Source: Arenicellales bacterium | Lineage (GTDB): Bacteria > Pseudomonadota > Gammaproteobacteria > Arenicellales > JAJDZL01 | DNA: 64,000 bases | Reading direction: 5' to 3' | Assembly (NCBI GenBank): GCA_965116205.1 | Contig: OZ220493.1 | Coordinates: forward strand, 2,485,072 to 2,549,071 | Shown here: one piece after another, positions 5,174-45,058 of the stretch | Numbering within the stretch: the first letter of the stretch is position 1 | Layout of the letters: the number at the start of each line of letters is the position of its first letter | Program-made: the position numbers and the translations under genes | The notes under the pieces: generated by a model | The model's database searches: none | Seen by the model: the letters and a program-made list of their open reading frames with translations, nothing else | What the model was told of the DNA's origin: nothing

Positions 5174-6736
5174 TCAGTCTGCTTCCACCTGCATCGCCAT
5201 TACGTTGCGATCTTCGCTGTTGAACAACACGGCTAGCAGATGAATCTTCTCCCGGCGATTGCGATACTTGTCTGCATAACGTCCTTGTCGAATTTGTTCG
5301 ATCGCCACCATGGCTTCCGTTTCTACATCTGCTTTCTGTACCATTTTAAACTCCAGTACGAACACCTGACTGTCATGCAACAGCACTAGGTCTGAACGCC
5401 CCAAACTTGATGATTCCTCACCAATGATGTCAAGGCCTATGGCACTGAAACAGGCATAGATCATACCAGCATAGTATCCCTCATAGTGATGCATACCGCT
5501 GTGGGTATACCACTGGTTCGGTATCGCTGAAAAAAATGAGTGCAATTCCATTTCGAACTCATCAAACTCGTTAGTAGCCAAAAATCGCGCCATGTTCCGG
5601 CCCCGTTTCAGGGCGTTAGGTAGGTCACTACTAACTGCATCCACCAACTCTCGGTTAAGACTCAGTCGCACTTCTTGGTTGGGATAATCTAACCGGTAAT
5701 AGATCCCGTCAGGTTGTTCTTTCTGATTCTTAATCGTCAGATAGCCACACTGGAACAGCAATGGATTGAGGCGAATCCTCTCAATTTCGAATCTAGATAG
5801 TTCGGCCCGGCCTATTTCCAAGTTCTCCAGATCTAGGGTGTTGAGTACACCTTCAACCATCATCCGGTAGAGAAAGCGAGGTGTGCCGGTTTCATACCAA
5901 TAGGGTTGGAACAGTCTTTTTTTGAACAGTAGTAGAATGTCGTAGGGGTTGTACACCTTGTCGGAACCCAACCAGTCGTAGCCGTTATACCACCGCTGCA
6001 TATCGCTCCGGTTTAATCCTTCGAGTTCCGGCGCGAACACCGTGTCAATGTCTTTATCCGTATAACCACAGATGGTGGCAAACTCGGGGTCCAAACTGAT
6101 GTCTTCAAGATTGTTCATGCCGGAGAACAGACTCACTTTGGAATACATGCTGATGCCGGTGACGAAAACGAATCGTACGAGATCATCACAGTCTTTAATT
6201 ATTCCGTACAAACCGTGTAGGCATTTTCGGTTGTTCTCTGCCTGTTGCGGGTTTTCAAGCAGGTCCAGTATCGGCTTGTCGTATTCGTCCACCAGTACCA
6301 CTACCTGTTCACCCGTAGCTTCATAAAGGTTGGATATCACTTCCTGTAGGCGTTCATCGCCATCGCCGGAGGATGAAGAAGGTTTGAGGCCGGCAAACTT
6401 TTCCTGTACGGTGAGTTGTCTATTGATGTGACGGTTCAGCTTGTGGGGCTTGTAGTAACTGCCGCCGAAACTGAGCCGTATCACTGGATGTTTTGTACTC
6501 CAGTCCCAGTGGTCGTGAATATACAATCCTTGAAACAGTTCTTCATTCCCTTCAAACAGTTCTTTCAGGGTGGAGAGCAGCAAAGATTTTCCGAACCGTC
6601 GGGGGCGTGACAGGAAATAGTATTTCCCGTCATCAAGCAGCTGTTTTATGTGACGTGTCTTGTCCACATAGTAACAGCCCTTGTTTCGAAGCTCTTTGAA
6701 GGAAGCGAGTCCGGTAGGCAGTTTGCGTTTGCTCAT
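5174..6736 (-). CDS. AAA-ATPase-like protein with C-terminal PD-(D/E)XK nuclease domain (DUF1703-type), copy A
   Basis: The N-terminus FKELRNKGCYYVDKT...YYFLSRPRRFGKSLLLSTLKELF matches the predicted AAA-ATPase family. The C-terminus GRSDLVLL...VFVLEFK has the D...ExK nuclease motif. It is about 60% identical by eye to ORF 36964-38547. Confidence 0.8.
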   Translation of the reverse strand: MSKRKLPTGLASFKELRNKGCYYVDKTRHIKQLLDDGKYYFLSRPRRFGKSLLLSTLKELFEGNEELFQGLYIHDHWDWSTKHPVIRLSFGGSYYKPHKLNRHINRQLTVQEKFAGLKPSSSSGDGDERLQEVISNLYEATGEQVVVLVDEYDKPILDLLENPQQAENNRKCLHGLYGIIKDCDDLVRFVFVTGISMYSKVSLFSGMNNLEDISLDPEFATICGYTDKDIDTVFAPELEGLNRSDMQRWYNGYDWLGSDKVYNPYDILLLFKKRLFQPYWYETGTPRFLYRMMVEGVLNTLDLENLEIGRAELSRFEIERIRLNPLLFQCGYLTIKNQKEQPDGIYYRLDYPNQEVRLSLNRELVDAVSSDLPNALKRGRNMARFLATNEFDEFEMELHSFFSAIPNQWYTHSGMHHYEGYYAGMIYACFSAIGLDIIGEESSSLGRSDLVLLHDSQVFVLEFKMVQKADVETEAMVAIEQIRQGRYADKYRNRREKIHLLAVLFNSEDRNVMAMQVEAD

Positions 6737-34012: not shown

Positions 34013-35698
34013 TTAGAGCAGAATCCGCCGGGAATCGTACAGCAGTTCACAGACAAATTTCAAAAATCGTGCGGCTTCGGCGCCATCAATGACTCGGTGA
34101 TCATAAGACAGGGAAAGAGGGAGCATTTTTTTCCAAACAAACTCGTCGTTCCTGTCGGGAAAGAGTTGAAGTTGATGACGGCTGACTCCTAGAATGGCCA
34201 CCTCAGGTGGGTTGATGATCGGGGTAAAAAAGCGTCCACCAATGCCGCCAAGGCTTGAAATGGTGAAGCACCCACCTTGGAAATCAGTCGGTGTGAGTTT
34301 GCCTTCTCTGGCAGCCGAGCTCATTTGCTGTAGAACTTTTGCAATATCCAGGACTCCTAGATTCTGGATATTTTTTATGACCGGGACAACGAGTCCATTA
34401 GCCGTGTCAACGGCGACACCAATGTTGATGTACTTCTTAACAATCAGGCTTTGAGTATCGGTTGAGAGCGAAGAATTGAAGGTTGGATATTGCTGCAGTG
34501 CGTTGACGATCGCCTTACAAATGAAGGATAGAATGGTTACGCGCGTTCCGGTTGCTCTTTGTTCAGTATCAATTTCTTTTCTGAAATTATCCAGTTCTGT
34601 AATGTCGGCTTCATCATGATTGGTAACATGTGGAATGTCAAGCCAGGACCGGTGGAGGCGATCACCAGTCAACTTTCTGATTTTATTGAGTTTGACTGTT
34701 TCGAATTCGCCAAACTTAGAAAAATCAACTTCCGGAATTGGCGGCGGACCGAAATTCTGTCCCCCTTGAGATAATGAGGCATCGTCCAGTACTCCTTTGA
34801 TGTATTTAACGACATCGTCTTTAAGGATTCTGCCCTTTGCTCCAGTACCGCGAATTTGAGATAAATCAGCACCCAATTCTCTGGCGAAACGCCGCACTGA
34901 TGGACTGGCATGGAGTGTCATTCCCTTGGATCGTTCAACCGGCGGCGGTAGTGTTGGTGGAGGAGTCGGTGAGTGTTTCGCGCGGGTCACATGAACAAAG
35001 TCTCGAGCGTTTTCCTCAACGGAAGCTGGTGGAATTGATTCCACTGTAACCGATTCATTGCGCGGTGCCTGCGGGTAACCCTCGGTATCGGATTCATCCA
35101 ATTCGACAGTCAGCAGGTAATCATCTTTTGAAATCTCATCACCCAGTTTGACGCCCAACTCAGTAACTTTACCAGTGACCGGAGAAGGCACGTCCATGGT
35201 TGCTTTATCGCTTTCCAGCGTCAGTATCGAATCTTCAACGGCCAATACATCCCCGACTGCCACATGTACTTCGATGACTTCGACATCAGTAAAGTCACCA
35301 ATGTCTGGCAATCGTACTCGATGAAAATGATTGCTAGTGCTTTCCGCCTCAGTTTGATTGAGTCTGCTTGATTGCTGTCCGGTTATTTGACTGTCTAAAC
35401 TTTGTTCTGTCGATTCGTCAACTTGAGTCTCTCCTGAACTGCTGGGTACGATATCAACCGAAATCAGGTGGTCACCTTTTGAAATTTCATCACCAATTGA
35501 TACAACCATCTCTGCTACGGTACCTGAGACAGGTGAGGGTACATCCATCGTCGCCTTATCACTTTCAAGTGTGAGAATCGAATCTTCTGCCGCAATGGTA
35601 TCGCCAACACCGACGTGAATTTCAATGATTTCTACATTGAAAAAGTCACCGATGTCCGGGAGAAGCACTTTCTCTTGATGATGTGTCATAGAAGTCAA
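34013..35698 (-). CDS. aceF: Pyruvate dehydrogenase E2, dihydrolipoamide acetyltransferase (two lipoyl domains)
   Basis: Two repeats contain LESDKATMDVPSP (lipoyl-Lys). It also has a peripheral subunit-binding domain and the catalytic DHRVIDGA motif. Confidence 0.92.
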   Translation of the reverse strand: MTSMTHHQEKVLLPDIGDFFNVEIIEIHVGVGDTIAAEDSILTLESDKATMDVPSPVSGTVAEMVVSIGDEISKGDHLISVDIVPSSSGETQVDESTEQSLDSQITGQQSSRLNQTEAESTSNHFHRVRLPDIGDFTDVEVIEVHVAVGDVLAVEDSILTLESDKATMDVPSPVTGKVTELGVKLGDEISKDDYLLTVELDESDTEGYPQAPRNESVTVESIPPASVEENARDFVHVTRAKHSPTPPPTLPPPVERSKGMTLHASPSVRRFARELGADLSQIRGTGAKGRILKDDVVKYIKGVLDDASLSQGGQNFGPPPIPEVDFSKFGEFETVKLNKIRKLTGDRLHRSWLDIPHVTNHDEADITELDNFRKEIDTEQRATGTRVTILSFICKAIVNALQQYPTFNSSLSTDTQSLIVKKYINIGVAVDTANGLVVPVIKNIQNLGVLDIAKVLQQMSSAAREGKLTPTDFQGGCFTISSLGGIGGRFFTPIINPPEVAILGVSRHQLQLFPDRNDEFVWKKMLPLSLSYDHRVIDGAEAARFLKFVCELLYDSRRILL

Positions 35699-35759
35699 TG
35701 CGTTAATTTAATCAGGCGAGTTACTGTAAGTATAACTATCCACATAGTTGAACCCTAAC

Positions 35760-36608
35760 TCATGCCGGCATGCTGGGTTCATTTTTCATTCGCTTTCGGA
35801 ATGCCAATCGCTTAGGTATGCCTTGTGAAAGCAAAATATGTAACTTTTGTCCTAACATTTTGTTTTTGCCATGCCGCAGGTTCTGGTAGCCCATTTGCTT
35901 GATGTAATGATTATCAAAGGGCTCGTCGCCGAATGAATGATGCCTGCTACGCACGTACCGGAGGCCAGTGGGCGTCTGTGTGGGAGTGGTAGTAGTGCCG
36001 TGAAAAACCACTTGTGGTGATAGCATGTAAGTTTTTAACCCATTCATCCACCACGAATGCATGACCGTATCAACGACTTCGTTCATCAGTGGAAAATGGC
36101 TCAACAGACTTTTCATTGCCTCGGCAGTAATCACATAGCCTACGGCGCCGATTGAATCGTATCGGATGACACCGAGTATAAATTCTTCATTGAGTCTGTA
36201 TACAGGAATGATCGGATTTCTTGTTTTTCCGTTGTACAAAAAGACGATGTCAAAATCAAACATTCCTACGCTACGATCTAGGTTGTCGATGACGGATTGA
36301 GTCTCCTCTGCAAGACTACAGTCGTCTTCGAATACTGCAATGATACTTTCATTGTTCTGCAGTGCGGTCTGCCAGACTTTACGATGACTTAACCAACACG
36401 CCAATCCACCATGTACCAGCGGACGTTTCCATTTCCTTTGATTAGCTAGATACTTCGGGCAGACGTTATCTTGAATATCCTGATCACTAAGATCGCACCA
36501 GTCTATGCCTTTTGCAAACTCGAATTCAATCCCGGCCTTTGCGAATTGGCTGATCATCGTTTTTCGTCGTTCTGTGGCACGGTCTAGATTGATGACATAG
36601 CATTTCAA
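35760..36608 (-). CDS. Glycosyltransferase family 25, copy B (61 nt upstream of aceF, same strand)
   Basis: MKCYVINLDRATER and VFEDDC motifs, with tail GIPKRLAFRKRMKNE. It is about 60% identical to ORF 12687-13490. Confidence 0.8.
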   Translation of the reverse strand: MKCYVINLDRATERRKTMISQFAKAGIEFEFAKGIDWCDLSDQDIQDNVCPKYLANQRKWKRPLVHGGLACWLSHRKVWQTALQNNESIIAVFEDDCSLAEETQSVIDNLDRSVGMFDFDIVFLYNGKTRNPIIPVYRLNEEFILGVIRYDSIGAVGYVITAEAMKSLLSHFPLMNEVVDTVMHSWWMNGLKTYMLSPQVVFHGTTTTPTQTPTGLRYVRSRHHSFGDEPFDNHYIKQMGYQNLRHGKNKMLGQKLHILLSQGIPKRLAFRKRMKNEPSMPA

Positions 36609-36963
36609 TTTTCAGTCCTGTCTAGGTTAACCAACACTAGATATTCAGCAGGTAAATAAAACTCACTTATTCTGTTCCGAGAGATTTACAGTCAAAGCAT
36701 TACACCCAATCGAATAGAGTAGTTTTGACAGAAGTTTATTGAACGCTTCGAAAGAGTCAAGATTTTTCTAGGGGGTTGTTATTTCGACCAGTTCTAATGT
36801 TAAATATTAACTCGACATTTTAATCTGAACCATCTCTAGATTTTCCTGCATCTTTTCCTGCCGTTCGGATTCAGTTCAGTGTGGCATCTGTGAATACCTT
36901 AGCCGTCCTTAGTTATGGGAGTTCTGATTTATGTTAAAATTGAAATCGTTCAGTTGCTAATCC

Positions 36964-38547
36964 ATGCCAATGACCCGTCGTAAACTTCCGATCGGCACTG
37001 CCGCCTTCCGAAACATTCGAAGCCGAGGTTTCTATTATGTGGACAAGACACCACACATATGGAAACTAGTTGACGAAAGTGAATACTACTTTTTGTCCCG
37101 TCCGCGGCGGTTCGGCAAGTCGTTGCTGGTTTCCACATTAAAAGAACTGTTTGAGGGTAATGAGGTGCTGTTCCGTGGCCTCTACATCCACGACCGTTGG
37201 GACTGGGAGGTCAAACATCCGGTAGTGCGGTTGAGTTTTGGTGGCCGATTCAGCAAGTCGGGAAATCTCGACAGTAGCATCGTCAGTCAACTGGCAGACA
37301 TTGAAGAATTTGCCGGCATTGAACCGCCACCTGTGGCTCAAGCTGGACCAGATCGTCTGCGGAGACTCGTTCGACGATTGTATCGAAGCACCGGTCAGCA
37401 GGTAGTAATTCTGGTAGATGAATATGATCGTCCCATTCTGGATGTCATTGAGAACGAAGCGATGTCCCTTGAGAACCGAGACGGTCTACAGGGCTTGTAT
37501 AGCATCATCAAGGACTGTGCCGAGCAGCTGCGTTTCGTGTTCGTCACCGGGGTGAGCATGTTTTCCAAGGTCAGTCTGTTTTCGGGACTCAACAATCTTG
37601 AAGATATCAGTCTGGATCCTCAGTATGCCACCATCTGTGGCTATACGGATGACGACATCGACACGGTATTCGTCCCGGAACTGGAGGGGCTGGACCGGAG
37701 CAAGGTTCGTCAGTGGTACAACGGTTACAACTGGCGGGGCGAGAACGAGGACCGGGATAAGGTCTACAATCCGTACGACATTCTGTTGCTGTTCAAAAAG
37801 AAAAAGTTCGAATCTTACTGGTACAAGACCGGCACTCCGAAGTTCTTATTCCGGAAACTGCTGCAGTCAGAGACCAGTCTACATGAACTGGAACGGTGCA
37901 TCATCACCGAGCACGAGGTGTCGAAGTTGGATGTGGGTGAAGTGGGTCTGGAGGCACTGTTATTTCAAACCGGTTATCTGACCATCGTGTCAGAGGAACA
38001 GGTGGGTTTTAAAACCCTGTACACCTTGGACTATCCCAATGACGAGGTGCGCCAGAGTCTGAGCGATGGTCTGCTGGGGCACTTGGGACAGTCCGGGGGT
38101 GAGTCGACTGAATGGGGTCTGAAACTGTGTGAACTGCTCCGGTGCAATCAGTTTGATAAATTTGCCGAACACCTGCACTCCCATCTGTCGGGCATTCCGT
38201 ATCATTGGCGTAACAGCATCGCGCTGGCACGTTTTGAGGCGTGGTATGCGGGTCTGACGTATATGCTTTTCCAGGCAGTCGGTGTGGAGGTCAGGGCGGA
38301 AGAGGCATCCAGTCGGGGGCGTTCGGATCTGGTGATTCTGTATGGTGAACAGGTATTCGTGCTGGAGTTGAAGGTGGCGACGCGCGAAGGGCAAGTGGAG
38401 AAGAAGTTGAATCAGGCGCTGGTGCAGATACGCAAGCGCGGTGATGCGGACAAGTATCGACACCGGGAGAAGCCGATCCACCATCTGGCCGTGGTGTTCG
38501 GTTGGAAAGAACTGAATCGGGTAGCGATTAGAACAGAAAAAGCCTGA
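36964..38547 (+). CDS. AAA-ATPase-like protein with C-terminal PD-(D/E)XK nuclease domain (DUF1703-type), copy B
   Basis: FYYVDKT...YYFLSRPRRFGKSLLVSTLKELF N-terminus and GRSDLVIL...VFVLELK C-terminus. It is visibly more GC-rich than copy A. Confidence 0.8.
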   Translation: MPMTRRKLPIGTAAFRNIRSRGFYYVDKTPHIWKLVDESEYYFLSRPRRFGKSLLVSTLKELFEGNEVLFRGLYIHDRWDWEVKHPVVRLSFGGRFSKSGNLDSSIVSQLADIEEFAGIEPPPVAQAGPDRLRRLVRRLYRSTGQQVVILVDEYDRPILDVIENEAMSLENRDGLQGLYSIIKDCAEQLRFVFVTGVSMFSKVSLFSGLNNLEDISLDPQYATICGYTDDDIDTVFVPELEGLDRSKVRQWYNGYNWRGENEDRDKVYNPYDILLLFKKKKFESYWYKTGTPKFLFRKLLQSETSLHELERCIITEHEVSKLDVGEVGLEALLFQTGYLTIVSEEQVGFKTLYTLDYPNDEVRQSLSDGLLGHLGQSGGESTEWGLKLCELLRCNQFDKFAEHLHSHLSGIPYHWRNSIALARFEAWYAGLTYMLFQAVGVEVRAEEASSRGRSDLVILYGEQVFVLELKVATREGQVEKKLNQALVQIRKRGDADKYRHREKPIHHLAVVFGWKELNRVAIRTEKA

Positions 38548-38701
38548 ATCTTTCAAATGGTGTGGTCAAGAAAGGATTCAAGGAGTATCTCATTTTCCCA
38601 CTACAGAAGTATTTTTAATACCTGTCTACTAGACTTCTGCATTTACCTGTTGCAGAATACTCTTCAGCAAACAAATGTTGGACAGTATTTTTTGGAGCTG
38701 A

Positions 38702-40555
38702 TCAATCAATTTGAGGTTCATGATTAATGCAGTCTTTCAAAGTGGTGAAAATATCGCTGAAGTTAAGGAAGTCTTCTTTTGCACCATTTTTACACAGCCA
38801 ATCGCAGAGATTTCTTTTTTCATCTTTGTTTACTGCCCAAGTTTCTTTAATTTGTTTTTCCTCTCCTCTTTCTATCATAGGATGTTTCGGAGTGATATCA
38901 AAAAATTTCGAATTTTGTTCTTTGGCTTTTTCTAATGTTTCACAATTGAACAAATTTTCAATTCCTTTCACAATTGGGTTTTCATTGAAGTGAGGCATTT
39001 TCCGCTTGTAAATATTTTTATCATAACCATCGGTAAATTTGCTTTCTGGATCATGCAAAACAACAATAATCTGTTTAGCAGTCATAGAGATGTATTTACG
39101 ATTATTCCAAACTTTGTCGAGGGTACCTTTACCATTTGCCACCTGCACTTTATACTTTTCAAGGATATTTCTTTTATCAAGCAAATTCGCTGCGCACTTC
39201 AAGTAATCTTGGTCTATATCTCCTTCGACAAAAAGAATTGGACAGAGTGATTTCTCCGCTTCTGTTCTGACCCGACTTAAGAATTCATTAGTCTTTTCCA
39301 GCGCACTAAATGCCTGCCCAATTTCAGAAAACTGTTCTGGATTGATACGAGAACCATCTGGGAAATTATAAACCTCGAAACCTTCAATTCCGCACTCATT
39401 AACCATTCCGAGAACAAATGATGGTGAGTGCGTGGTCAAGATGAACTGGACCTTGGGAAACATGTGAATTAGGTTCGGAAGTATATGGTATTGATGATGG
39501 GAATGAAGGTGCAGGTCCACTTCATCAACAACTACAAGCCCTGATACGTCATCGGTAGAATTAAAAGTCACATTACGGCTTTCTCGTAAATCAAAATCTC
39601 TGAGTATGGATAGAAATAGTGTCAATAGTGTTATCTCGCCACTCGACAATTGGAAGAGATTAGGAACTATCTGATCGTTATCCGACATCAACGATATTCT
39701 ACGGTCGTGTCTTCCACCAATACCAAATCGAAATTTTCTCTTTGTGACAAGTGTCGACATGACAGCCTGCAAGACGGCTAATGCTGATTCGTATATATTG
39801 GTGGCAACACCCTGATATCCAAGAAATAAAGGTAATGCTATTGATTTATTTTCATCAATATTTTGTTTCATTTGGAAAGTGTTGAGTTCAAAAGCCATCT
39901 TGTCGAATACAACATCATACAACCAATCATGAATATTCTGAAGTGGTGAATAAGTAATTACCTGACGTGGAGTTTCACCATTGAAATGCAGGGTCTCCGT
40001 GTAACGAGGTTTTGCACGTAGATTATCTTTATTCAACCATGCGGGTTCCTCTCCACGGTTTGCAGGGAAATAGAGCAGGCAGTTGGCTGATACTAAGTTT
40101 GTTAATTCTTCGAGACGTGATGAATCATTGAAGTTGGAATCGAAATAGTCCATGTCGTTGTTGCTAAATGTCGCTTCCCAAACATCAAAATCATAGCCTT
40201 TTAGTCCGATTGGTGGCTGTTTATACATATACTTGGGTTGTTTCAGGCGAATTTCCCGTGTGTAAAACTCCGATTGGAAATCACATTGGGCACAATAATA
40301 TTCAGCGTCGTTAGATATATAGGAATTACTGCGTAATTTAAATACTCTCTCGTTATCCAATTCACGGGATTCTTGATAAACTGAATCCTTAGCCAAAACC
40401 ATGCCATTTACTATGTGAGAAAGAGCTAGAGTTTTCCCAGACCCGTTCTTTCCGACAAATAAAACAGGTTTGGGGCATTCATTCTCGAAAGGAAATTCAA
40501 TTTTCAGGTTTTGGAGCACTCCATAATTCTTGATTTGAAGTCGTTCTAAATACAT
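38702..40555 (-). CDS. ABC/SMC-type ATPase with C-terminal Toprim-like domain (OLD-family / fused PARIS-like candidate)
   Basis: Walker A GKNGSGKT, signature-like LSSGEITLL, Walker B LVVVDEVDLHLH and H-loop TTHSP. The C-terminal ILFVEGDIDQDYL resembles the Toprim/DUF4435 acidic motif. The gene is very AT-rich. Confidence 0.55.
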   Translation of the reverse strand: MYLERLQIKNYGVLQNLKIEFPFENECPKPVLFVGKNGSGKTLALSHIVNGMVLAKDSVYQESRELDNERVFKLRSNSYISNDAEYYCAQCDFQSEFYTREIRLKQPKYMYKQPPIGLKGYDFDVWEATFSNNDMDYFDSNFNDSSRLEELTNLVSANCLLYFPANRGEEPAWLNKDNLRAKPRYTETLHFNGETPRQVITYSPLQNIHDWLYDVVFDKMAFELNTFQMKQNIDENKSIALPLFLGYQGVATNIYESALAVLQAVMSTLVTKRKFRFGIGGRHDRRISLMSDNDQIVPNLFQLSSGEITLLTLFLSILRDFDLRESRNVTFNSTDDVSGLVVVDEVDLHLHSHHQYHILPNLIHMFPKVQFILTTHSPSFVLGMVNECGIEGFEVYNFPDGSRINPEQFSEIGQAFSALEKTNEFLSRVRTEAEKSLCPILFVEGDIDQDYLKCAANLLDKRNILEKYKVQVANGKGTLDKVWNNRKYISMTAKQIIVVLHDPESKFTDGYDKNIYKRKMPHFNENPIVKGIENLFNCETLEKAKEQNSKFFDITPKHPMIERGEEKQIKETWAVNKDEKRNLCDWLCKNGAKEDFLNFSDIFTTLKDCINHEPQID

Positions 40556-40749
40556 GTAACCAAATTCTCTAGATTTTTAGATTATCGTTATTGCTTTATT
40601 GAGCATCTTGGTGGCTACGGAATGTACTTACTTTGTCAAAACGGGTGCTTTCTACTGACATCATCCACTTCAAAGATGACCACGTTACGACTCTCATTCT
40701 TTCCTTTCAAGAGTATCTTATCAATAGAAGACTAAGTAATTGAATTTCT

Positions 40750-43416
40750 TTATGTGGTCAATGGGTCTGGCTTTTCCGGATCAATGTCTAGTTTTTGTAT
40801 GGCCTGCTTCACTTTATTGGCAGCTATCTTCCCCTCCTCCTTTAGAGCATGTAAGGCCGTTGCTACGATGTGATTTCGATTGACTTCGAAGAATTGACGC
40901 AGATTGGCTCGCGTGTCAGATCGCCCAAATCCATCCGTGCCCAGAACATGGTAGTTTCTCGGCACGAATCCGCGAATCTGATCGGCATAAACCTGCATGT
41001 AATCGGTAACCGCAATGACGGGTCCGACTGTATCTTCCAAGCACTTCTCAACATAACTTTTGCGCCGCGTAGCAGTGGGATGCAGACGATTCCAGCGACT
41101 GGCGGAGTGTCCCTCACGGGCCAGTTCATTGAAACTCGTCGCGCTCCATACATCGGCCGCTACGGCATATTCTGATTCAAGAATACCTGCCGCCACAATC
41201 ACTTCCCGCAGAATGGTACCACTACCCAATAGCTGTACGCGAAGTTTCCGTTTCGAAGGGGACTTCTGAAGCAGATACAGACCCTGCAAAATTCCTTCTT
41301 CGACACCCTTGAGCATGGGTGGATGAGCATAGTTTTCATTCATACAGGTAATGTAGTAGTAGATTGCTTCATCCTGTTGGTACATACGCCGCAGACCATC
41401 GTGAATGATGACCGCCAGCTCATAAATGAAAGTTGGGTCGTACGCAACACAGGTCGGAATCGTGGACGCCAGTACGTGGCTGTGCCCATCCTGGTGTTGT
41501 AGTCCTTCACCCGCAAGCGTGGTTCGACCAGCGGTGCCACCGATCAGAAAACCACGTGCCAAGATATCCGCCGCGGCCCAAGTCAAGTCTCCAACTCGTT
41601 GAAAACCAAACATGGAGTAGAAGATATAAAATGGAATCATACGAATACCGTGATTGCTACCCGCAGTGCCAGCCGCAATCCAAGAGCAGACCGCCCCGGC
41701 TTCATTAATACCTTCCTGCAATACCTGTCCTTCTTTGGATTCTCGATAAAACATGAGTTGATCTGAATCTTCAGGTTGATATAGTTGCCCAAATGGGGAG
41801 TAGATTCCCAATTGCCGAAACATGCCTTCCATGCCAAAGGTACGACTTTCATCAGGAACAATTGGTACGATATTGCGGCCGATTGCCTTGTCTCGAATGA
41901 GCGCTGTCAGGATTCTGACAAAACCCATCGTTGTCGAAACTTCGCGGCCATCGGTGCCTTTGAGTTGTGCCGCAAAAATATCAAGATCTGGAATTTTGAG
42001 TGTACCGGGAATCTTTCGTCGTGCCGGCAGAGCACCCCCTAGTTTCTGGCGCTGTTTCAGCAGATATTGAATTTCCGGACTGTCTTCGGGTGGTCGATAA
42101 AATGGTGCCGAGGCCACTTCCTCATCAGTCAGTGGGATTCTGAAGCGGTCACGAAACGAGATCAGTGCCTCTTCGCCGATTTTTTTCTGTTGATGAGTGA
42201 TGTTCTGCCCTTCACCGGCTTCTCCCATGCCGTAGCCTTTCACCGTTTTGGCTAAAATGACGGTAGGTTGATCGGTGTGTTTTACCGCGGCTGCGTAAGC
42301 CGCATAGATTTTGTGTGGGTCGTGGCCCCCTCGATTCAACCGCCAAATATCCTCATCCGTCATGTTCGAAACCATTTCACGCAGCTCATCATACTTGCCA
42401 AAAAAGTGTTCTCGAGTGTAGGCGCCGCCTTTGGCTTTGAATGCCTGGTACTCACCATCCACAGCTTCTTCCATCCGCCGTTTCAACAGTCCTTTCGTGT
42501 CGCGCATCAATAGAGGGTCCCAGTAAGAACCCCAAATCAGTTTAATCACATTCCAACCGGCGCCACGGAACTCGCCTTCCAGTTCTTGGATGATTTTGCC
42601 GTTACCTCGAACTGGACCGTCTAGGCGCTGTAAGTTGCAGTTCACGACAAAAATCAGATTGTCCAATTTTTCCCGCCCGGCGAGCGATAGGGCTCCCATG
42701 GATTCCGGTTCGTCCATTTCACCATCCCCCACAAAGACCCACACTTTACGATTGGAAGTGTCACAGAAACCACGGTTATGTAAATATTTCATAAACCGGG
42801 CCTGATAGATCGCCATGATGGGTCCCAGTCCCATAGAAACGGTGGGAAATTGCCAAAACTCCGGTTTGAGTCGAGGATGGGGATAGGAGGGCAGGCCATT
42901 ACCATCCGTTTCACGTCTGAAATTATCCAGGTCATTTTCGCTTAGACGCCCTTCCAGAAACGCCCGTGCGTAAACTCCCGGCGCTGAGTGTCCCTGAAAG
43001 AAGATCAGGTCACCGCCATGGGATTCACTCGCCACGTGCCAGAAGTGATGAAATCCAACATCGTATAGGGTGGCTGACGAGGCAAAACTAGCGATATGTC
43101 CGCCTAGTTCACTGGAAGTGCGATTGGCTCGTACCACCATCGCTAGGGCGTTCCAGCGAATCAGTGAACGGATGCGCCACTCAAGGGCGTGGTCACCGTT
43201 ACTTCTTTCTTCCTGAGTCAGACCAATGGTATTCAGATACGCAGTAGTGGGGCGATGAGGGATATGAACACCGGAGCGGCGCGCACTATCAATCAGTTTT
43301 TCAATGAGAAAGTGAGCCCGCTCATGGCCTTCTCGTTCAATGACACTGGCAAGGGCATCAAGCCACTCTTCCGTCTCGAACGGATCAACATCGCGTAAAG
43401 TCTTATCATCAGGCAT
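40750..43416 (-). CDS. aceE: Pyruvate dehydrogenase E1 component (homodimeric type)
   Basis: 888 aa and collinear with AceE (DPFETEEWLDAL..., GHIASF, GDGEMDEPES ThDP motif). Confidence 0.93.
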   Translation of the reverse strand: MPDDKTLRDVDPFETEEWLDALASVIEREGHERAHFLIEKLIDSARRSGVHIPHRPTTAYLNTIGLTQEERSNGDHALEWRIRSLIRWNALAMVVRANRTSSELGGHIASFASSATLYDVGFHHFWHVASESHGGDLIFFQGHSAPGVYARAFLEGRLSENDLDNFRRETDGNGLPSYPHPRLKPEFWQFPTVSMGLGPIMAIYQARFMKYLHNRGFCDTSNRKVWVFVGDGEMDEPESMGALSLAGREKLDNLIFVVNCNLQRLDGPVRGNGKIIQELEGEFRGAGWNVIKLIWGSYWDPLLMRDTKGLLKRRMEEAVDGEYQAFKAKGGAYTREHFFGKYDELREMVSNMTDEDIWRLNRGGHDPHKIYAAYAAAVKHTDQPTVILAKTVKGYGMGEAGEGQNITHQQKKIGEEALISFRDRFRIPLTDEEVASAPFYRPPEDSPEIQYLLKQRQKLGGALPARRKIPGTLKIPDLDIFAAQLKGTDGREVSTTMGFVRILTALIRDKAIGRNIVPIVPDESRTFGMEGMFRQLGIYSPFGQLYQPEDSDQLMFYRESKEGQVLQEGINEAGAVCSWIAAGTAGSNHGIRMIPFYIFYSMFGFQRVGDLTWAAADILARGFLIGGTAGRTTLAGEGLQHQDGHSHVLASTIPTCVAYDPTFIYELAVIIHDGLRRMYQQDEAIYYYITCMNENYAHPPMLKGVEEGILQGLYLLQKSPSKRKLRVQLLGSGTILREVIVAAGILESEYAVAADVWSATSFNELAREGHSASRWNRLHPTATRRKSYVEKCLEDTVGPVIAVTDYMQVYADQIRGFVPRNYHVLGTDGFGRSDTRANLRQFFEVNRNHIVATALHALKEEGKIAANKVKQAIQKLDIDPEKPDPLTT

Positions 43417-43765: not shown

Positions 43766-45058
43766 ATGTTGAGTGAACAGGCGCGACAGAGTCTGCAACA
43801 ATTTGTGGATCGTTCTGACAAGGAATACGCGCTGTACTTCGTCGGCCGGCATGACGTCATTGCCGGAATTGAGAAAACGGTCGAGCAAATGCAACAGTTG
43901 ATTGCCGGTCGGAATGTCACTGAGCTAATCGAATCCGCGGCCATCCTGTCGGATCAGCGCACCTGGCTGGTGCAGGGGGCACCGGGAGCCGGTAAGACGG
44001 CTTTACAGAGTCATCTGCGACAGATGTGGGAAAAGCGACCAGATGGACCGATTACCATCGGTTTGGCACCCGGTGAACTGGAAGACGAGACTGCACTTGA
44101 GCAAAAGATCGCATACATCATTAGGAAGCAGTATGAAGTTCCGGCGGATCGATTCTGGAAAGCTGCATTGGCAAGCGCATTGAAGTCACTGGGCAGCAGT
44201 TTAGGGTTCAAGATGCGGCAAACCAAACGGCGAGGCACGCTCATAAATCTGTGGCAGTTGTTCGACCATGGTTGGTTCAATTTCATTCTAGAACGTCTGC
44301 CTGCAAAATTCAATGCCAAGCCACGACAACTGCGTCCGATCGTTTTTATGATTGATGAGATACAGAGTCTACAACCGCCGAGTGAAAAGCTGTTAATGCA
44401 ATTACATCTTGGCCAGACTGGATTGCCGATTGTTATGGTGCTGGCTGGTCTCGCCTGGTCGGAGTCGCGTCTATCCAAAGCGGGGATCTCCAGATTCAGC
44501 CACGGACACGTGCAGACGCTGGCGCCGCTGACCAAAGCGGAGGCGGCCGAGGCGGTGCATCGCCTGCTGCAGGAGCATGACATCGAAGGATACCAAGACG
44601 CTGACATTGTCGTAAAGATCGCGGTGTGGTCGAATGGTTGGCCACAACATCTACACAACTACATGCGTGCGCTGGCGGCGGAGCTGCTGCGTACGGACGG
44701 GGACTTACCTCAAGTCGACGAAGTCAGAGTTCACGAGATGGGTGATGCAGATAGAAAAGATTACTATACGAGACGATTGAACCATTCCAAAATCAGTGTT
44801 TGTAAAAATCTGCTAGCCGATGTCGCTGAAATGATTGGCGAACATGGAGTCGATGAATCGGAGCTGCTGTATCTGCTTCGTGATCGATCTTGGGATAAAC
44901 GCAGCTATCCGACAGATACCATGCCTCAAAGCATGAAACCGCAGGAATTTATTGATGAAATGATCAAAAATGGCATGACCCACAAGGTAGACAGTTACAT
45001 TACCATACCAATTCCGTCATTCCGCCAGCATCTGGTTGATAGACGATTGAACCGCTGA
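43766..45058 (+). CDS. STAND/AAA_16-like NTPase with C-terminal winged-helix-like region, copy B
   Basis: YFVGRHD, Walker A QGAPGAGKTALQ, Walker B VFMIDEIQ, SNGWPQHL, and C-terminal ITIPIPSFRQHLVDR. It is collinear with ORF 13716-15038. Confidence 0.65.
   Translation: MLSEQARQSLQQFVDRSDKEYALYFVGRHDVIAGIEKTVEQMQQLIAGRNVTELIESAAILSDQRTWLVQGAPGAGKTALQSHLRQMWEKRPDGPITIGLAPGELEDETALEQKIAYIIRKQYEVPADRFWKAALASALKSLGSSLGFKMRQTKRRGTLINLWQLFDHGWFNFILERLPAKFNAKPRQLRPIVFMIDEIQSLQPPSEKLLMQLHLGQTGLPIVMVLAGLAWSESRLSKAGISRFSHGHVQTLAPLTKAEAAEAVHRLLQEHDIEGYQDADIVVKIAVWSNGWPQHLHNYMRALAAELLRTDGDLPQVDEVRVHEMGDADRKDYYTRRLNHSKISVCKNLLADVAEMIGEHGVDESELLYLLRDRSWDKRSYPTDTMPQSMKPQEFIDEMIKNGMTHKVDSYITIPIPSFRQHLVDRRLNR

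What the first reader, a model, noticed from the sequence alone, without database searches (positions are those of the whole stretch)
38702..40555. Stand-alone ABC-ATPase with a Toprim-like C-terminus: OLD-family or fused PARIS-like defence candidate
The 617-aa protein has an SMC/ABC-type ATPase head: MYLERLQIKNYG start, GKNGSGKT, LSSGE, VVVDEVDLHLH and TTHSP. After residue ~430 comes a region beginning ILFVEGDIDQDYL, with a later VVLHDPE. This resembles the acidic Toprim/DUF4435 motifs of OLD nucleases, GajA and AriB. There is no UvrD-like partner (so not classical Gabija) and no separate AriB. The gene is strikingly AT-rich (17 G+C in the 60-nt line at 38881) and sits in the inserted block inside the PDH operon.
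Basis: inference. Interest (0 to 1): 0.55.

Follow-up and report, generated by a model that had tools for sequence, protein, structure and literature searches.

The report
Stand-alone ABC-ATPase–Toprim nuclease, OLD-like
This gene encodes a single protein that joins a Septu/PtuA-like ATPase to an OLD-type Toprim nuclease, most likely a horizontally acquired one-gene anti-phage system from a known kind of defence but an uncharacterised subfamily.

Summary
ORF 38702-40555 (-) encodes 617 aa with every quoted motif and only 37.8% G+C.

Residues 1-395 form an ABC ATPase closest to PtuA of Septu and type I-A retrons. Residues 436-617 form a Toprim nuclease domain. Direct profile searches with the window copy miss it, but several other lines support it:
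- 17 of 27 relatives hit Pfam OLD-like_TOPRIM.
- 23 of 27 hit retron I-C RT-Toprim models.
- A distant homolog passes Pfam's cutoff.
- The top five PDB fold hits are OLD Toprim regions.
- The family aligns colinearly with P2 Old and with the validated defence protein HEC-04.

The catalytic set (E444, D448, D502, E/D504, E533, K580) and the ATPase motifs are conserved.

It is not PARIS (no DUF4435), not Gabija (no helicase), not Septu (no HNH partner) and not a retron effector (no RT gene; no Rfam RNA-family match).

No neighbour is conserved across 21 loci. The gene lies in a variable hotspot between aceE and aceF and is absent from four relatives.

Verdict: a divergent Class-1-OLD-like, single-gene ATP-regulated nuclease. 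Defence is probable but untested. Moderate interest.

The parts
38702..40555 (-). Complete gene for the 617-aa ABC-ATPase–Toprim fusion protein (end coordinate includes the stop codon)
   Evidence: ORF list. Translation and motifs. More than 100 full-length homologs at 43-61% identity.
39371..40555 (-). ABC ATPase head, residues 1-395, PtuA-like, including the inserted region between Walker A and the signature motif
   Evidence: Pfam AAA_21 (50.1 bits) and AAA_15 (48.6 bits), both above cutoff. A PADLOC PtuA model matches residues 1-387 in one stretch at E=2.8e-30. PDB sequence hits are to PtuA, E=3e-15. Foldseek top 50 are all PtuA, E about 1e-14.
40430..40453 (-). Walker A / P-loop, GKNGSGKT (residues 35-42, K41)
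   Evidence: Coordinates verified by translation. K41 is invariant in 50 of 50 family members.
39635..39649 (-). ABC signature motif LSSGE (residues 303-307)
   Evidence: Q302, G306 and E307 are invariant.
39515..39535 (-). Walker B, VVVDEVD (residues 341-347; D344, catalytic E345)
   Evidence: D344 and E345 are invariant in 50 of 50.
39422..39436 (-). H-loop, TTHSP (residues 374-378, H376)
   Evidence: H376 is invariant.
39251..39340 (-). Long linker helix (residues 406-435) joining the ATPase head to the Toprim domain. It sits where PtuA has its C-terminal extension.
   Evidence: AF2 models predict helix 406-435. The PtuA C-terminal extension is the PtuB docking site (PMC12819146).
38705..39250 (-). 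Toprim nuclease domain, residues 436-617: a four-stranded Toprim core, a beta-meander insert, and two C-terminal helices
   Evidence: AF2 model pLDDT 89.9. Foldseek top five are OLD C-terminal Toprim regions. 17 of 27 relatives hit PF20469. 23 of 27 hit RT-Toprim_I-C. Homolog P0262 passes the PF20469 cutoff. hhalign links to P2 Old and HEC-04.
39212..39238 (-). Toprim motif 1, ILFVEGDID. E444 is the invariant Toprim glutamate (metal A); G445; D448 is the +4 acidic residue (metal B).
   Evidence: Aligns with 'LLVEGKTE' of P2 Old, E319 of HEC-04 and 'VILVEGKND' of 1T6T. Invariant across all architectures. 47 of 50 have E and 48 of 50 have D.
39044..39064 (-). Toprim motif 2, VVLHDPE: D502-x-E504, the equivalent of the DxD motif (metal A)
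   Evidence: Aligns with the 'DCD' of P2 Old and D375/D377 of HEC-04. D502 is 50 of 50; position 504 is E in 26 and D in 24.
38948..38965 (-). GIENLF motif: E533 is the candidate second metal-B ligand (equivalent of BpOLD E508 / Eco2 E515)
   Evidence: G531, E533 and N534 are invariant across all architectures. The equivalence is inferred from order and spacing relative to PMC6755086 and PMC12405507. It was not verified by superposition.
38792..38824 (-). DEKRNLCDWLC helix: K580 is the candidate catalytic lysine (equivalent of K562 in BpOLD and Eco2)
   Evidence: K580 is invariant in 50 of 50 and across all architectures. C584 and C588 are conserved only within the ATPase-fused subfamily. The equivalence is inferred.
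35699..40749 (.). Variable cargo block between aceF (34013-35698) and aceE (40750-43416), holding GT25, the AAA-ATPase_like/PDDEXK_9 gene and the ABC-Toprim gene
   Evidence: Synteny with relative L083 ends at window 40756. Relatives carry other cargo here: a PIN/RHH toxin-antitoxin pair, HTH+GT25, six metabolic genes, or an MTase with a PDDEXK-ATPase.

Best explanation
[quoted passage not shown] It most likely acts as a one-gene anti-phage or anti-mobile-element system.

Shown:
- The head carries a complete, invariant set of ABC catalytic motifs and is closest to PtuA.
- The tail is a Toprim domain with a complete, invariant two-metal set (E444, D502, E/D504 for metal A; D448, E533 for metal B) plus K580.
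- The nuclease sits where PtuA has the C-terminal extension that docks the HNH nuclease PtuB.
- No partner gene is conserved.
- The gene is accessory, low in G+C, and lies in a variable hotspot.

Inferred:
- Two heads dimerise around ATP, as in other ABC, PtuA and OLD proteins.
- The ATPase senses or gates (phage cue, nucleotide state, or nucleic-acid ends) and licenses the cis-linked Toprim to cut nucleic acid by two-metal catalysis.
- This stops phage replication directly or by abortive infection.
- By analogy with HEC-04, P2 Old and Vc OLD, both K41 and the Toprim acidic residues should be needed.

The substrate is undecided. It could be DNA nicking or degradation, as in OLD and GajA. It could be RNA or tRNA, as in the retron Eco2 Toprim, which gives the best C-terminal profile matches in PADLOC, and in AriB.
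For: ATPase head:
- Pfam AAA_21 and AAA_15 above cutoff.
- PADLOC PtuA E=9e-31, including one model matched over residues 1-387.
- PDB PtuA chains E=3e-15.
- Foldseek top 50 are all PtuA.
- NCBIfam PtuA hits 50 of 50 members.
- All ATPase motifs invariant.

Toprim tail:
- Confident model, pLDDT 89.9, with beta-alpha Toprim topology.
- Top five PDB fold hits are OLD Toprim regions; retron Eco8 is at rank 7.
- PF20469 hit in 17 of 27 relatives.
- A homolog at E=7e-40 to the domain profile passes the PF20469 gathering score, 33.3 against 23.2 bits.
- RT-Toprim_I-C hit in 23 of 27, best 1e-7, and GajA in 7 of 27.
- NCBIfam retron Eco8 effector hit in 43 of 50 and Ec67 fusion in 14 of 50.
- hhalign is colinear with P2 Old at E=3.6e-4.
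- hhalign with validated HEC-04 gives probability 88.8%, E=2.5e-6, with E319/D375/D377 aligned to E444/D502/E504.
- Catalytic residues are invariant across all architectures and match the BpOLD and Eco2 sets in order and spacing.

Stand-alone status:
- No conserved neighbour in 21 loci.

Accessory and defence context:
- Absent from four relatives, in a hotspot that elsewhere holds a toxin-antitoxin pair or a methyltransferase.
- One homolog directly follows an Hma system (HmaB E=1.6e-86).
- About two other loci carry Type I R-M neighbours.
- A plasmid copy lies among IS elements next to a DUF262 gene.
- The same Toprim module is fused to SEFIR/TIR and to receiver domains.

Precedent: HEC-04 defence needs Walker A and the Toprim E/D/D residues. 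Class 1 OLDs defend alone.
Against: - No profile or PDB sequence search detects a Toprim directly in the window protein.
- Fold-search scores are marginal: E about 0.008, TM 0.28-0.39, no hit below 1e-3.
- The hhalign probability to P2 Old is only 37%.
- I could not inspect model coordinates, so spatial clustering of the six catalytic residues is unverified.
- Most homolog loci have ordinary metabolic neighbours, so defence-island enrichment is weak.
- The family is not found on phage or viral contigs.
- The related two-gene HEC-01 gave no protection in assays.
- No experiment exists for this family. Trigger and substrate are unknown.
Confidence: 0.72

Rival explanations
1. It is a fused PARIS system (AriA-AriB in one polypeptide). 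The ATPase would sense phage anti-restriction proteins, and a DUF4435 Toprim would cleave host tRNA.
For: The architecture, ABC ATPase followed by Toprim, is the same. The closest characterised Toprim, Eco2, is an RNase, so an RNA target is possible.
Against: None of 27 members hit DUF4435 in Pfam even at E<=10. No AriB model hits in PADLOC at E<=1. AriA chains match the head only at E=0.22, against 3e-15 for PtuA. The top 25 PADLOC head hits are all PtuA or ATPase_I-A.
Confidence: 0.04
2. It is a Septu or retron type I effector that has lost or is separated from its partners, so it needs PtuB, an RT or msDNA encoded elsewhere.
For: The head is PtuA-like. The tail resembles retron Eco8 and Ec67/Eco2 Toprims.
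Against: No HNH, RT or any other gene is conserved next to it in 21 loci. No Rfam family reaches threshold anywhere in the 64-kb window. The PtuA C-terminal extension that docks PtuB is replaced by the Toprim. The NCBIfam PtuA score is 88 bits against a cutoff of 500.
Confidence: 0.05
3. It is not an immune gene. It would be a sporadically distributed DNA-repair or RNA-processing enzyme (RecF/SbcC-like head with an RNase M5- or DnaG-like Toprim), or a selfish addiction module of mobile DNA.
For: Most homolog loci lie among metabolic genes. [quoted passage not shown] There is no phage-challenge data.
Against: It is absent from four close relatives and has atypical G+C, so it is not core. It has a patchy distribution across many phyla at 35-61% identity. 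It is associated with Hma, R-M, IS and DUF262 genes in several loci. The module is fused to TIR/SEFIR. Its nearest characterised homologs are all defence proteins.
Confidence: 0.15
4. The C-terminal domain is a catalytically dead or purely regulatory Toprim-like fold, and the protein works as an ATPase only.
For: The window copy is below detection for every Toprim profile. Its DxD is D-P-E rather than D-x-D.
Against: E444, D448, D502, E533 and K580 are invariant or nearly so. Position 504 is always D or E across 50 full-length members and across other architectures. That pattern indicates selection on an active site.
Confidence: 0.04

Closest known systems
HEC-04 (Hma-embedded candidate 04, E. 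coli WP_044502283.1; Payne et al., bioRxiv 10.1101/2024.01.29.577857)
   Same: A single polypeptide with an ABC ATPase followed by a Toprim, and no partner gene. hhalign is colinear from the signature motif to the DxD (probability 88.8%, E=2.5e-6). HEC-04's defence-essential residues E319/D375/D377 align with E444/D502/E504 here. One homolog of the window protein is likewise adjacent to an Hma system.
   Different: HEC-04 is about 490 aa with a much shorter head (Toprim Glu at 319, against 444 here). Its motif is VEDEF, not VEGxxD. No HEC-04 model appears among the C-terminal PADLOC hits or the top 25 full-length hits. It is a different subfamily.
Class 1 OLD family nucleases (P2 Old, Thermus scotoductus OLD 6P74, Vibrio cholerae Vc OLD)
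   Same: N-terminal ABC ATPase plus C-terminal Toprim, of similar length (586 against 617 aa). A single gene without conserved neighbours. Colinear hhalign with P2 Old. The tail's top fold hits are OLD Toprim regions. The same catalytic residue pattern, including the lysine.
   Different: Sequence similarity is marginal: TsOLD E=0.34 and P2 Old hhalign probability 37%. The head is closer to PtuA. The +4 residue is D, not E. The window copy does not reach the PF20469 threshold. The Toprim carries a beta-meander insert and a distinct C-terminal helical pair.
PtuA of Septu and of type I-A retrons (Ec78/Eco7, Ec83)
   Same: The best sequence, profile and structural match for residues 1-395, including the insert.
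   Different: PtuA works with a separate HNH nuclease, PtuB, docked on its C-terminal extension. Here there is no PtuB, and the extension is replaced by a linker helix and a Toprim. The score is far below NCBIfam's PtuA cutoff (88 against 500 bits).
Retron Eco2 (Ec67, type I-C) RT-Toprim and retron Eco8 (type I-B, Class 3 OLD) effector
   Same: The best profile matches for the Toprim tail: RT-Toprim_I-C in 23 of 27 members at 1e-7, retron_eff_Eco8 in 43 of 50 and retron_Ec67_fus in 14 of 50. Eco2 has the same E-x-x-x-D, DxD, S/x-E and K pattern.
   Different: There is no reverse transcriptase gene in the neighbourhood and no Rfam RNA-family match in the window. In Eco2 the Toprim is fused to an RT, not to an ATPase.
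PARIS (AriA/AriB) and Gabija (GajA/GajB)
   Same: The general ABC ATPase plus Toprim logic.
   Different: No DUF4435 or AriB signal. No UvrD-like GajB neighbour. GajA models hit only 7 of 27 tails weakly.

Membership tests
OLD family nuclease, Class 1 | N-terminal ABC-type ATPase domain with intact Walker A, signature, Walker B and H-loop motifs | tested here: met
   Pfam AAA_15 and AAA_21 above cutoff. All motifs invariant in 50 of 50.
OLD family nuclease, Class 1 | C-terminal Toprim domain recognisable as OLD-type (Pfam PF20469 at or above the gathering score) | tested here: inconclusive
   The window copy has no hit at E<=10. 17 of 27 relatives hit below threshold. Homolog P0262 passes, 33.3 against 23.2 bits. 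Fold hits to OLD Toprims are marginal, E about 0.008, TM 0.38.
OLD family nuclease, Class 1 | Catalytic set: Toprim Glu, +4 acidic residue, DxD, second metal-B Glu, catalytic Lys | tested here: met
   E444, D448, D502-x-E/D504, E533 and K580 are invariant. They align with P2 Old and HEC-04 motifs, and their order and spacing match BpOLD and Eco2. Spatial clustering was not checked.
OLD family nuclease, Class 1 | Single gene with no conserved helicase, retron or AriB-type neighbour | tested here: met
   All-vs-all BLASTP of flanking ORFs in 21 loci finds no conserved neighbour.
OLD family nuclease, Class 1 | ATPase head of the OLD lineage, closer to OLD/GajA than to other ABC clades | tested here: not met
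   PtuA chains match at E=3e-15 and TsOLD at E=0.34. The top 50 fold hits are all PtuA. The top 25 PADLOC hits are PtuA or ATPase_I-A.
Septu (PtuA/PtuB) | PtuA-type ATPase | tested here: inconclusive
   The head is homologous over residues 1-387. The NCBIfam PtuA score is only 88 bits against a cutoff of 500.
Septu (PtuA/PtuB) | Adjacent HNH nuclease PtuB, and a PtuA C-terminal extension that docks it | tested here: not met
   No HNH gene is adjacent in the window or conserved in 21 loci. The extension is replaced by the Toprim.
PARIS (including the fused form) | DUF4435-type Toprim (AriB) | tested here: not met
   None of 27 members hit DUF4435 at E<=10. No AriB model hits at E<=1.
PARIS (including the fused form) | AriA-type ATPase | tested here: not met
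   AriA chains 8ux9 and 8v45 match at only E=0.22.
Gabija | [quoted passage not shown] | tested here: not met
   The window neighbours are aceE and a PDDEXK-ATPase. No helicase is conserved across loci.
Retron type I-B / I-C effector (Class 3 OLD, RT-Toprim) | Adjacent reverse transcriptase and msr/msd ncRNA | tested here: not met
   No RT among the neighbours. No Rfam hit in the window. An uncurated ncRNA cannot be excluded.
HEC-04 | Match to the HEC-04 family model; same head size and motifs | tested here: not met
   Homologous by hhalign. However, no HEC-04 model appears among the tail hits or the top full-length hits. The head is about 125 residues longer, and the Toprim motif differs.
Any of the above | Anti-phage protection that depends on the ATPase and nuclease active sites | not testable with these tools
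   This needs heterologous expression and phage challenge.

The most novel reading that the evidence does not exclude
This family may be a distinct, widespread but unnamed class of one-gene immune nucleases. In it, a Septu-type sensor ATPase has captured, in cis, a portable Toprim effector of the retron Eco2 type. That same effector module is also wired to SEFIR/TIR, receiver and unknown N-terminal domains, and like Eco2 and AriB it may cut RNA or tRNA rather than DNA. If so, it would be an evolutionary bridge between Septu, OLD and retron effectors, and a new RNA-targeting abortive-infection system.
Probability: 0.25. Interest if true: 0.55.

Novelty: new variant of a known kind. Interest (0 to 1): 0.4.

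Why it matters
ABC-ATPase–Toprim nucleases (OLD, Gabija, PARIS, retron Eco8, HEC-04) are a major theme in bacterial immunity. How the ATPase gates the nuclease, and what decides between DNA and RNA targeting, are still open questions.

This family is sizeable:
- 808 clusters at 50% identity carry the tail domain.
- More than 1600 clusters at 90% identity match the whole protein.
- It spans Proteobacteria, Chloroflexota, Nitrospirota, Acidobacteriota, Spirochaetes and Cyanobacteria.

It is not captured by a dedicated model in Pfam, NCBIfam or PADLOC 2.0, so annotation pipelines label it only 'AAA family ATPase'.

It combines a PtuA-like head with a cis Toprim in the position of PtuA's nuclease-docking extension. 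That gives a natural single-chain system for studying ATPase-to-nuclease coupling. The alternative partners of the tail (TIR/SEFIR, receiver domain) mark it as a reusable effector module.

For this genome, it also documents the aceE–aceF gap as an integration hotspot that splits the PDH operon.

Tried and rejected
Direct detection of the tail gave nothing usable:
- Pfam at E<=10 found nothing.
- PADLOC gave only HEC-01B at E=0.02.
- The family profile against PDB sequences gave only 1T6T at E=0.1.
- The broader profile found nothing, so HMM-versus-sequence searches do not reach solved Toprims.

The BFVD viral fold search had no significant hit.

PARIS/DUF4435 was rejected.

A zinc site from C584/C588 was rejected, because the cysteines are not conserved in other architectures.

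A retron ncRNA was rejected: Rfam found no hits in the window.

Insertion scars were rejected. Only short, chance-level direct and inverted repeats occur in 35500-41000.

The promoter and terminator scan is at or below shuffle expectation and is uninformative.

A phage-borne origin was rejected. There are no full-length homologs in IMG/VR or GenBank phages.

The source contig could not be retrieved by exact protein look-up, so the organism is placed only as an uncultured gammaproteobacterium through AceE relatives.

I considered reading RNA specificity from the E-x-x-x-D variant. I dropped it as weak, because from my own knowledge DnaG primases share that spacing.
Full report
**1. Observation**

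The ORF at 38702-40555 on the minus strand encodes 617 aa. The 60-nt line at 38881 has 17 G+C. The gene's G+C is 0.378, against 0.46 for the window and 0.47-0.52 for aceF, aceE, lpd and uvrA. It is a real gene. More than 1600 database clusters match it, and over 100 of them are full-length (about 605-660 aa) at 43-61% identity.

**2. The N-terminal 395 residues: an ABC ATPase closest to PtuA**

- Pfam AAA_21 (50.1 bits) and AAA_15 (48.6 bits) pass their cutoffs.
- The 25 best PADLOC hits are all PtuA or the retron I-A ATPase, with a best E of 9e-31. One PtuA model matches residues 1-387 in a single stretch.
- PDB sequence hits are to PtuA of retrons Ec83 and Ec78 and of Septu (E=3e-15 to 1e-7). 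AriA matches at E=0.22 and T. scotoductus OLD at E=0.34.
- The full-length AF2 model (pLDDT 81.4) finds only PtuA chains in its top 50 PDB fold hits, at E about 1e-14.
- All 50 aligned family members hit NCBIfam PtuA. The scores are far below the equivalog cutoff: 88 bits against 500 for the window copy.
- K41, Q302, G306, E307, D344, E345 and H376 are invariant in 50 of 50 members. An active ATPase is therefore expected.

**3. The C-terminal ~180 residues: a Toprim nuclease domain**

Direct searches with the window sequence fail. Pfam finds nothing at E<=10. PADLOC gives only HEC-01B at E=0.02. Profile-versus-PDB sequence searches give only 1T6T at E=0.1. [quoted passage not shown]

Five independent family-level lines agree that it is a Toprim:

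(a) The domain model is confident (pLDDT 89.9, pTM 0.80). It has the order strand–Glu, helix, strand, helix, strand–DxE, strand. Its top five PDB fold hits are the C-terminal Toprim regions of Xanthomonas and Burkholderia OLD, and retron Eco8 is at rank 7. The scores are marginal, though: E=0.008-0.04 and TM 0.28-0.39.

(b) Scanning 27 relatives one by one, 17 hit Pfam OLD-like_TOPRIM. Five hit DUF3226 and one hits RloB, which I recall being Toprim-clan families.

(c) An exhaustive profile search finds 808 clusters with the domain. One of them, P0262 (E=7e-40 to the profile), passes the PF20469 gathering score at 33.3 against 23.2 bits.

(d) PADLOC retron I-C RT-Toprim models hit 23 of 27 relatives (best 1e-7) and GajA models hit 7. 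NCBIfam retron Eco8 effector hits 43 of 50 and the Ec67/Eco2 RT-endonuclease hits 14 of 50.

(e) hhalign of the family against P2 Old is colinear from Walker B to the DxD (E=3.6e-4). Against the experimentally validated HEC-04 it gives 88.8% probability and E=2.5e-6.

**4. Active site**

| System | Catalytic residues | Source |
|---|---|---|
| BpOLD | E400, D455, D457 (metal A); E404, T506, E508 (metal B); K562 | PMC6755086, |
| Retron Eco2 | E374, D460, D462; D378, S513, E515; K562 | PMC12405507, |
| Window protein | E444, D502, E504; D448, E533; K580 | |

The order and spacing are the same in all three. E444/G445, D448, D502, G531/E533/N534 and K580 are invariant across every architecture that carries the domain, and position 504 is always D or E. 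HEC-04's defence-essential E319, D375 and D377 align with E444, D502 and E504.

The E533 and K580 equivalences are inferred from order, not from a superposition, because I could not inspect the coordinates. C584 and C588 are not conserved outside the ATPase-fused subfamily, so they are not a metal site.

**5. Stand-alone status and context**

All-vs-all comparison of flanking ORFs in 21 full-length loci finds no conserved neighbour. No RT, HNH, helicase or AriB-like gene flanks the gene in the window. Rfam finds nothing in the 64 kb.

The gene lies between aceE and aceF. Synteny with a relative (AceE in the same 90%-identity cluster) stops exactly at the aceE stop codon. In four relatives the same gap holds different cargo:
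- a PIN/RHH toxin-antitoxin pair
- an HTH protein plus GT25
- six metabolic and transport genes
- a methyltransferase with a PDDEXK-ATPase and a HATPase_c_3 protein

This is a variable hotspot, and the ABC-Toprim gene is a recent, low-G+C arrival.

Elsewhere the picture is mixed. One homolog directly follows an Hma system (HmaB E=1.6e-86). About two loci carry Type I R-M genes. A plasmid copy sits among IS elements beside a DUF262 gene. Most other loci are metabolic. That pattern resembles what is reported for Class 1 OLDs (PMC10568477). The family is absent from viral collections. The host is an uncultured gammaproteobacterium.

**6. Modularity**

The same Toprim module is also fused to:
- a SEFIR/TIR domain (P0262)
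- a response-regulator receiver domain (P0205)
- an unannotated ~200-aa N-terminal domain in a recurrent group of ~390-aa proteins

This is the behaviour of a portable effector domain.

**7. Mechanism**

In Septu and type I-A retrons, a pair of PtuA C-terminal extensions clamps the HNH nuclease PtuB (PMC12819146). Here that position holds a long helix (406-435) and the Toprim. The nuclease is therefore attached in cis.

The most likely mechanism is an ATP-gated, dimerising ABC head that licenses two-metal cleavage by the Toprim, giving single-gene immunity as in HEC-04, P2 Old and Vc OLD.

The substrate is open. OLD and GajA cut DNA. The nearest characterised tail relatives cut RNA: the Eco2 Toprim and AriB, which cleaves tRNA.

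**8. Classification**

| Candidate family | Result | Reason |
|---|---|---|
| PARIS | not a member | no DUF4435 or AriB signal; AriA match only E=0.22 |
| Gabija | not a member | no GajB helicase |
| Septu | not a member | no PtuB; score below cutoff |
| Retron effector | not a member | no RT gene nearby; no Rfam RNA-family match |
| HEC-04 | not a member | homologous, but a different subfamily |
| Class 1 OLD | peripheral at best | fits by architecture, context and catalytic residues; the head is PtuA-like and the tail is below the PF20469 threshold |

I therefore call it a new variant of a known kind.

**9. Score**

Interest is 0.4. The architecture and likely role are expected by specialists, and close functional analogues are already validated. 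However, the subfamily is large, unnamed and untested, and it links the Septu, OLD and retron effector lineages.

Noticed in passing
window 36964-38547 (+); a second copy near window 5654-6679; L083:15462-17150: A 527-aa AAA-ATPase_like (PF09820) plus PD-(D/E)XK (PDDEXK_9) protein lies convergent to the ABC-Toprim gene. A paralogous copy exists elsewhere in the window (68% nucleotide identity to the copy in a relative). The relative L083 also has one downstream of aceE. The gene may be multi-copy and possibly mobile or defence-related.
   Followed up: partly
window 43766-45058 (+): A 430-aa P-loop NTPase sits between aceE and uvrA. It gives weak AAA_16, AAA_22, NACHT, mad8 and Sll1717-family hits. 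It is absent from all four relatives examined, where uvrA directly abuts aceE. This is a second accessory insertion and possibly a STAND-like defence gene.
   Followed up: partly
window 35699-40749, and L083, L087, L088, L089 downstream of aceE: The aceE-aceF intergenic gap is a lineage-wide integration hotspot that splits the PDH operon. Its cargo differs in every genome: a PIN/RHH toxin-antitoxin pair; an HTH protein plus GT25; six metabolic and transport genes (FA_hydroxylase, DctP, DctM and others); or an N6/N4 MTase with HATPase_c_3 and Metallophos. No att-like repeats were found.
   Followed up: partly
window 35760-36608 (-): A GT25 glycosyltransferase lies immediately upstream of aceF (61-bp gap). 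Relative L088 has one in the same position, so it is an older resident of the hotspot than the ABC-Toprim gene.
   Followed up: no
proteins P0262, P0205, and P0233/P0235/P0237/P0241/P0264 (not in the window): The same Toprim module occurs fused to a SEFIR/TIR domain, to a response-regulator receiver domain, and to a conserved unannotated ~200-aa N-terminal domain (starting MELTFPFKN...) in a group of ~390-aa proteins. These are other candidate effector architectures.
   Followed up: partly
L001:1-7968: Upstream of the homolog P0015 lies a dense defence island: a GajA-like OLD protein, a UvrD-like helicase (a Gabija-like pair), then an HmaB methylase and a DUF499 ATPase (Hma). This fits the 'embedded/adjacent defence gene' pattern of Payne et al..
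   Followed up: partly
L090 (Acetobacter vaccinii plasmid NZ_CP043508.1, 17310-19211): A full-length homolog (38% identity) lies on a mobilizable plasmid. It is flanked by IS66, IS3, IS5 and IS1182 transposases, a DUF262 protein, a RelA/SpoT-domain protein and two dynamin-family genes.
   Followed up: no
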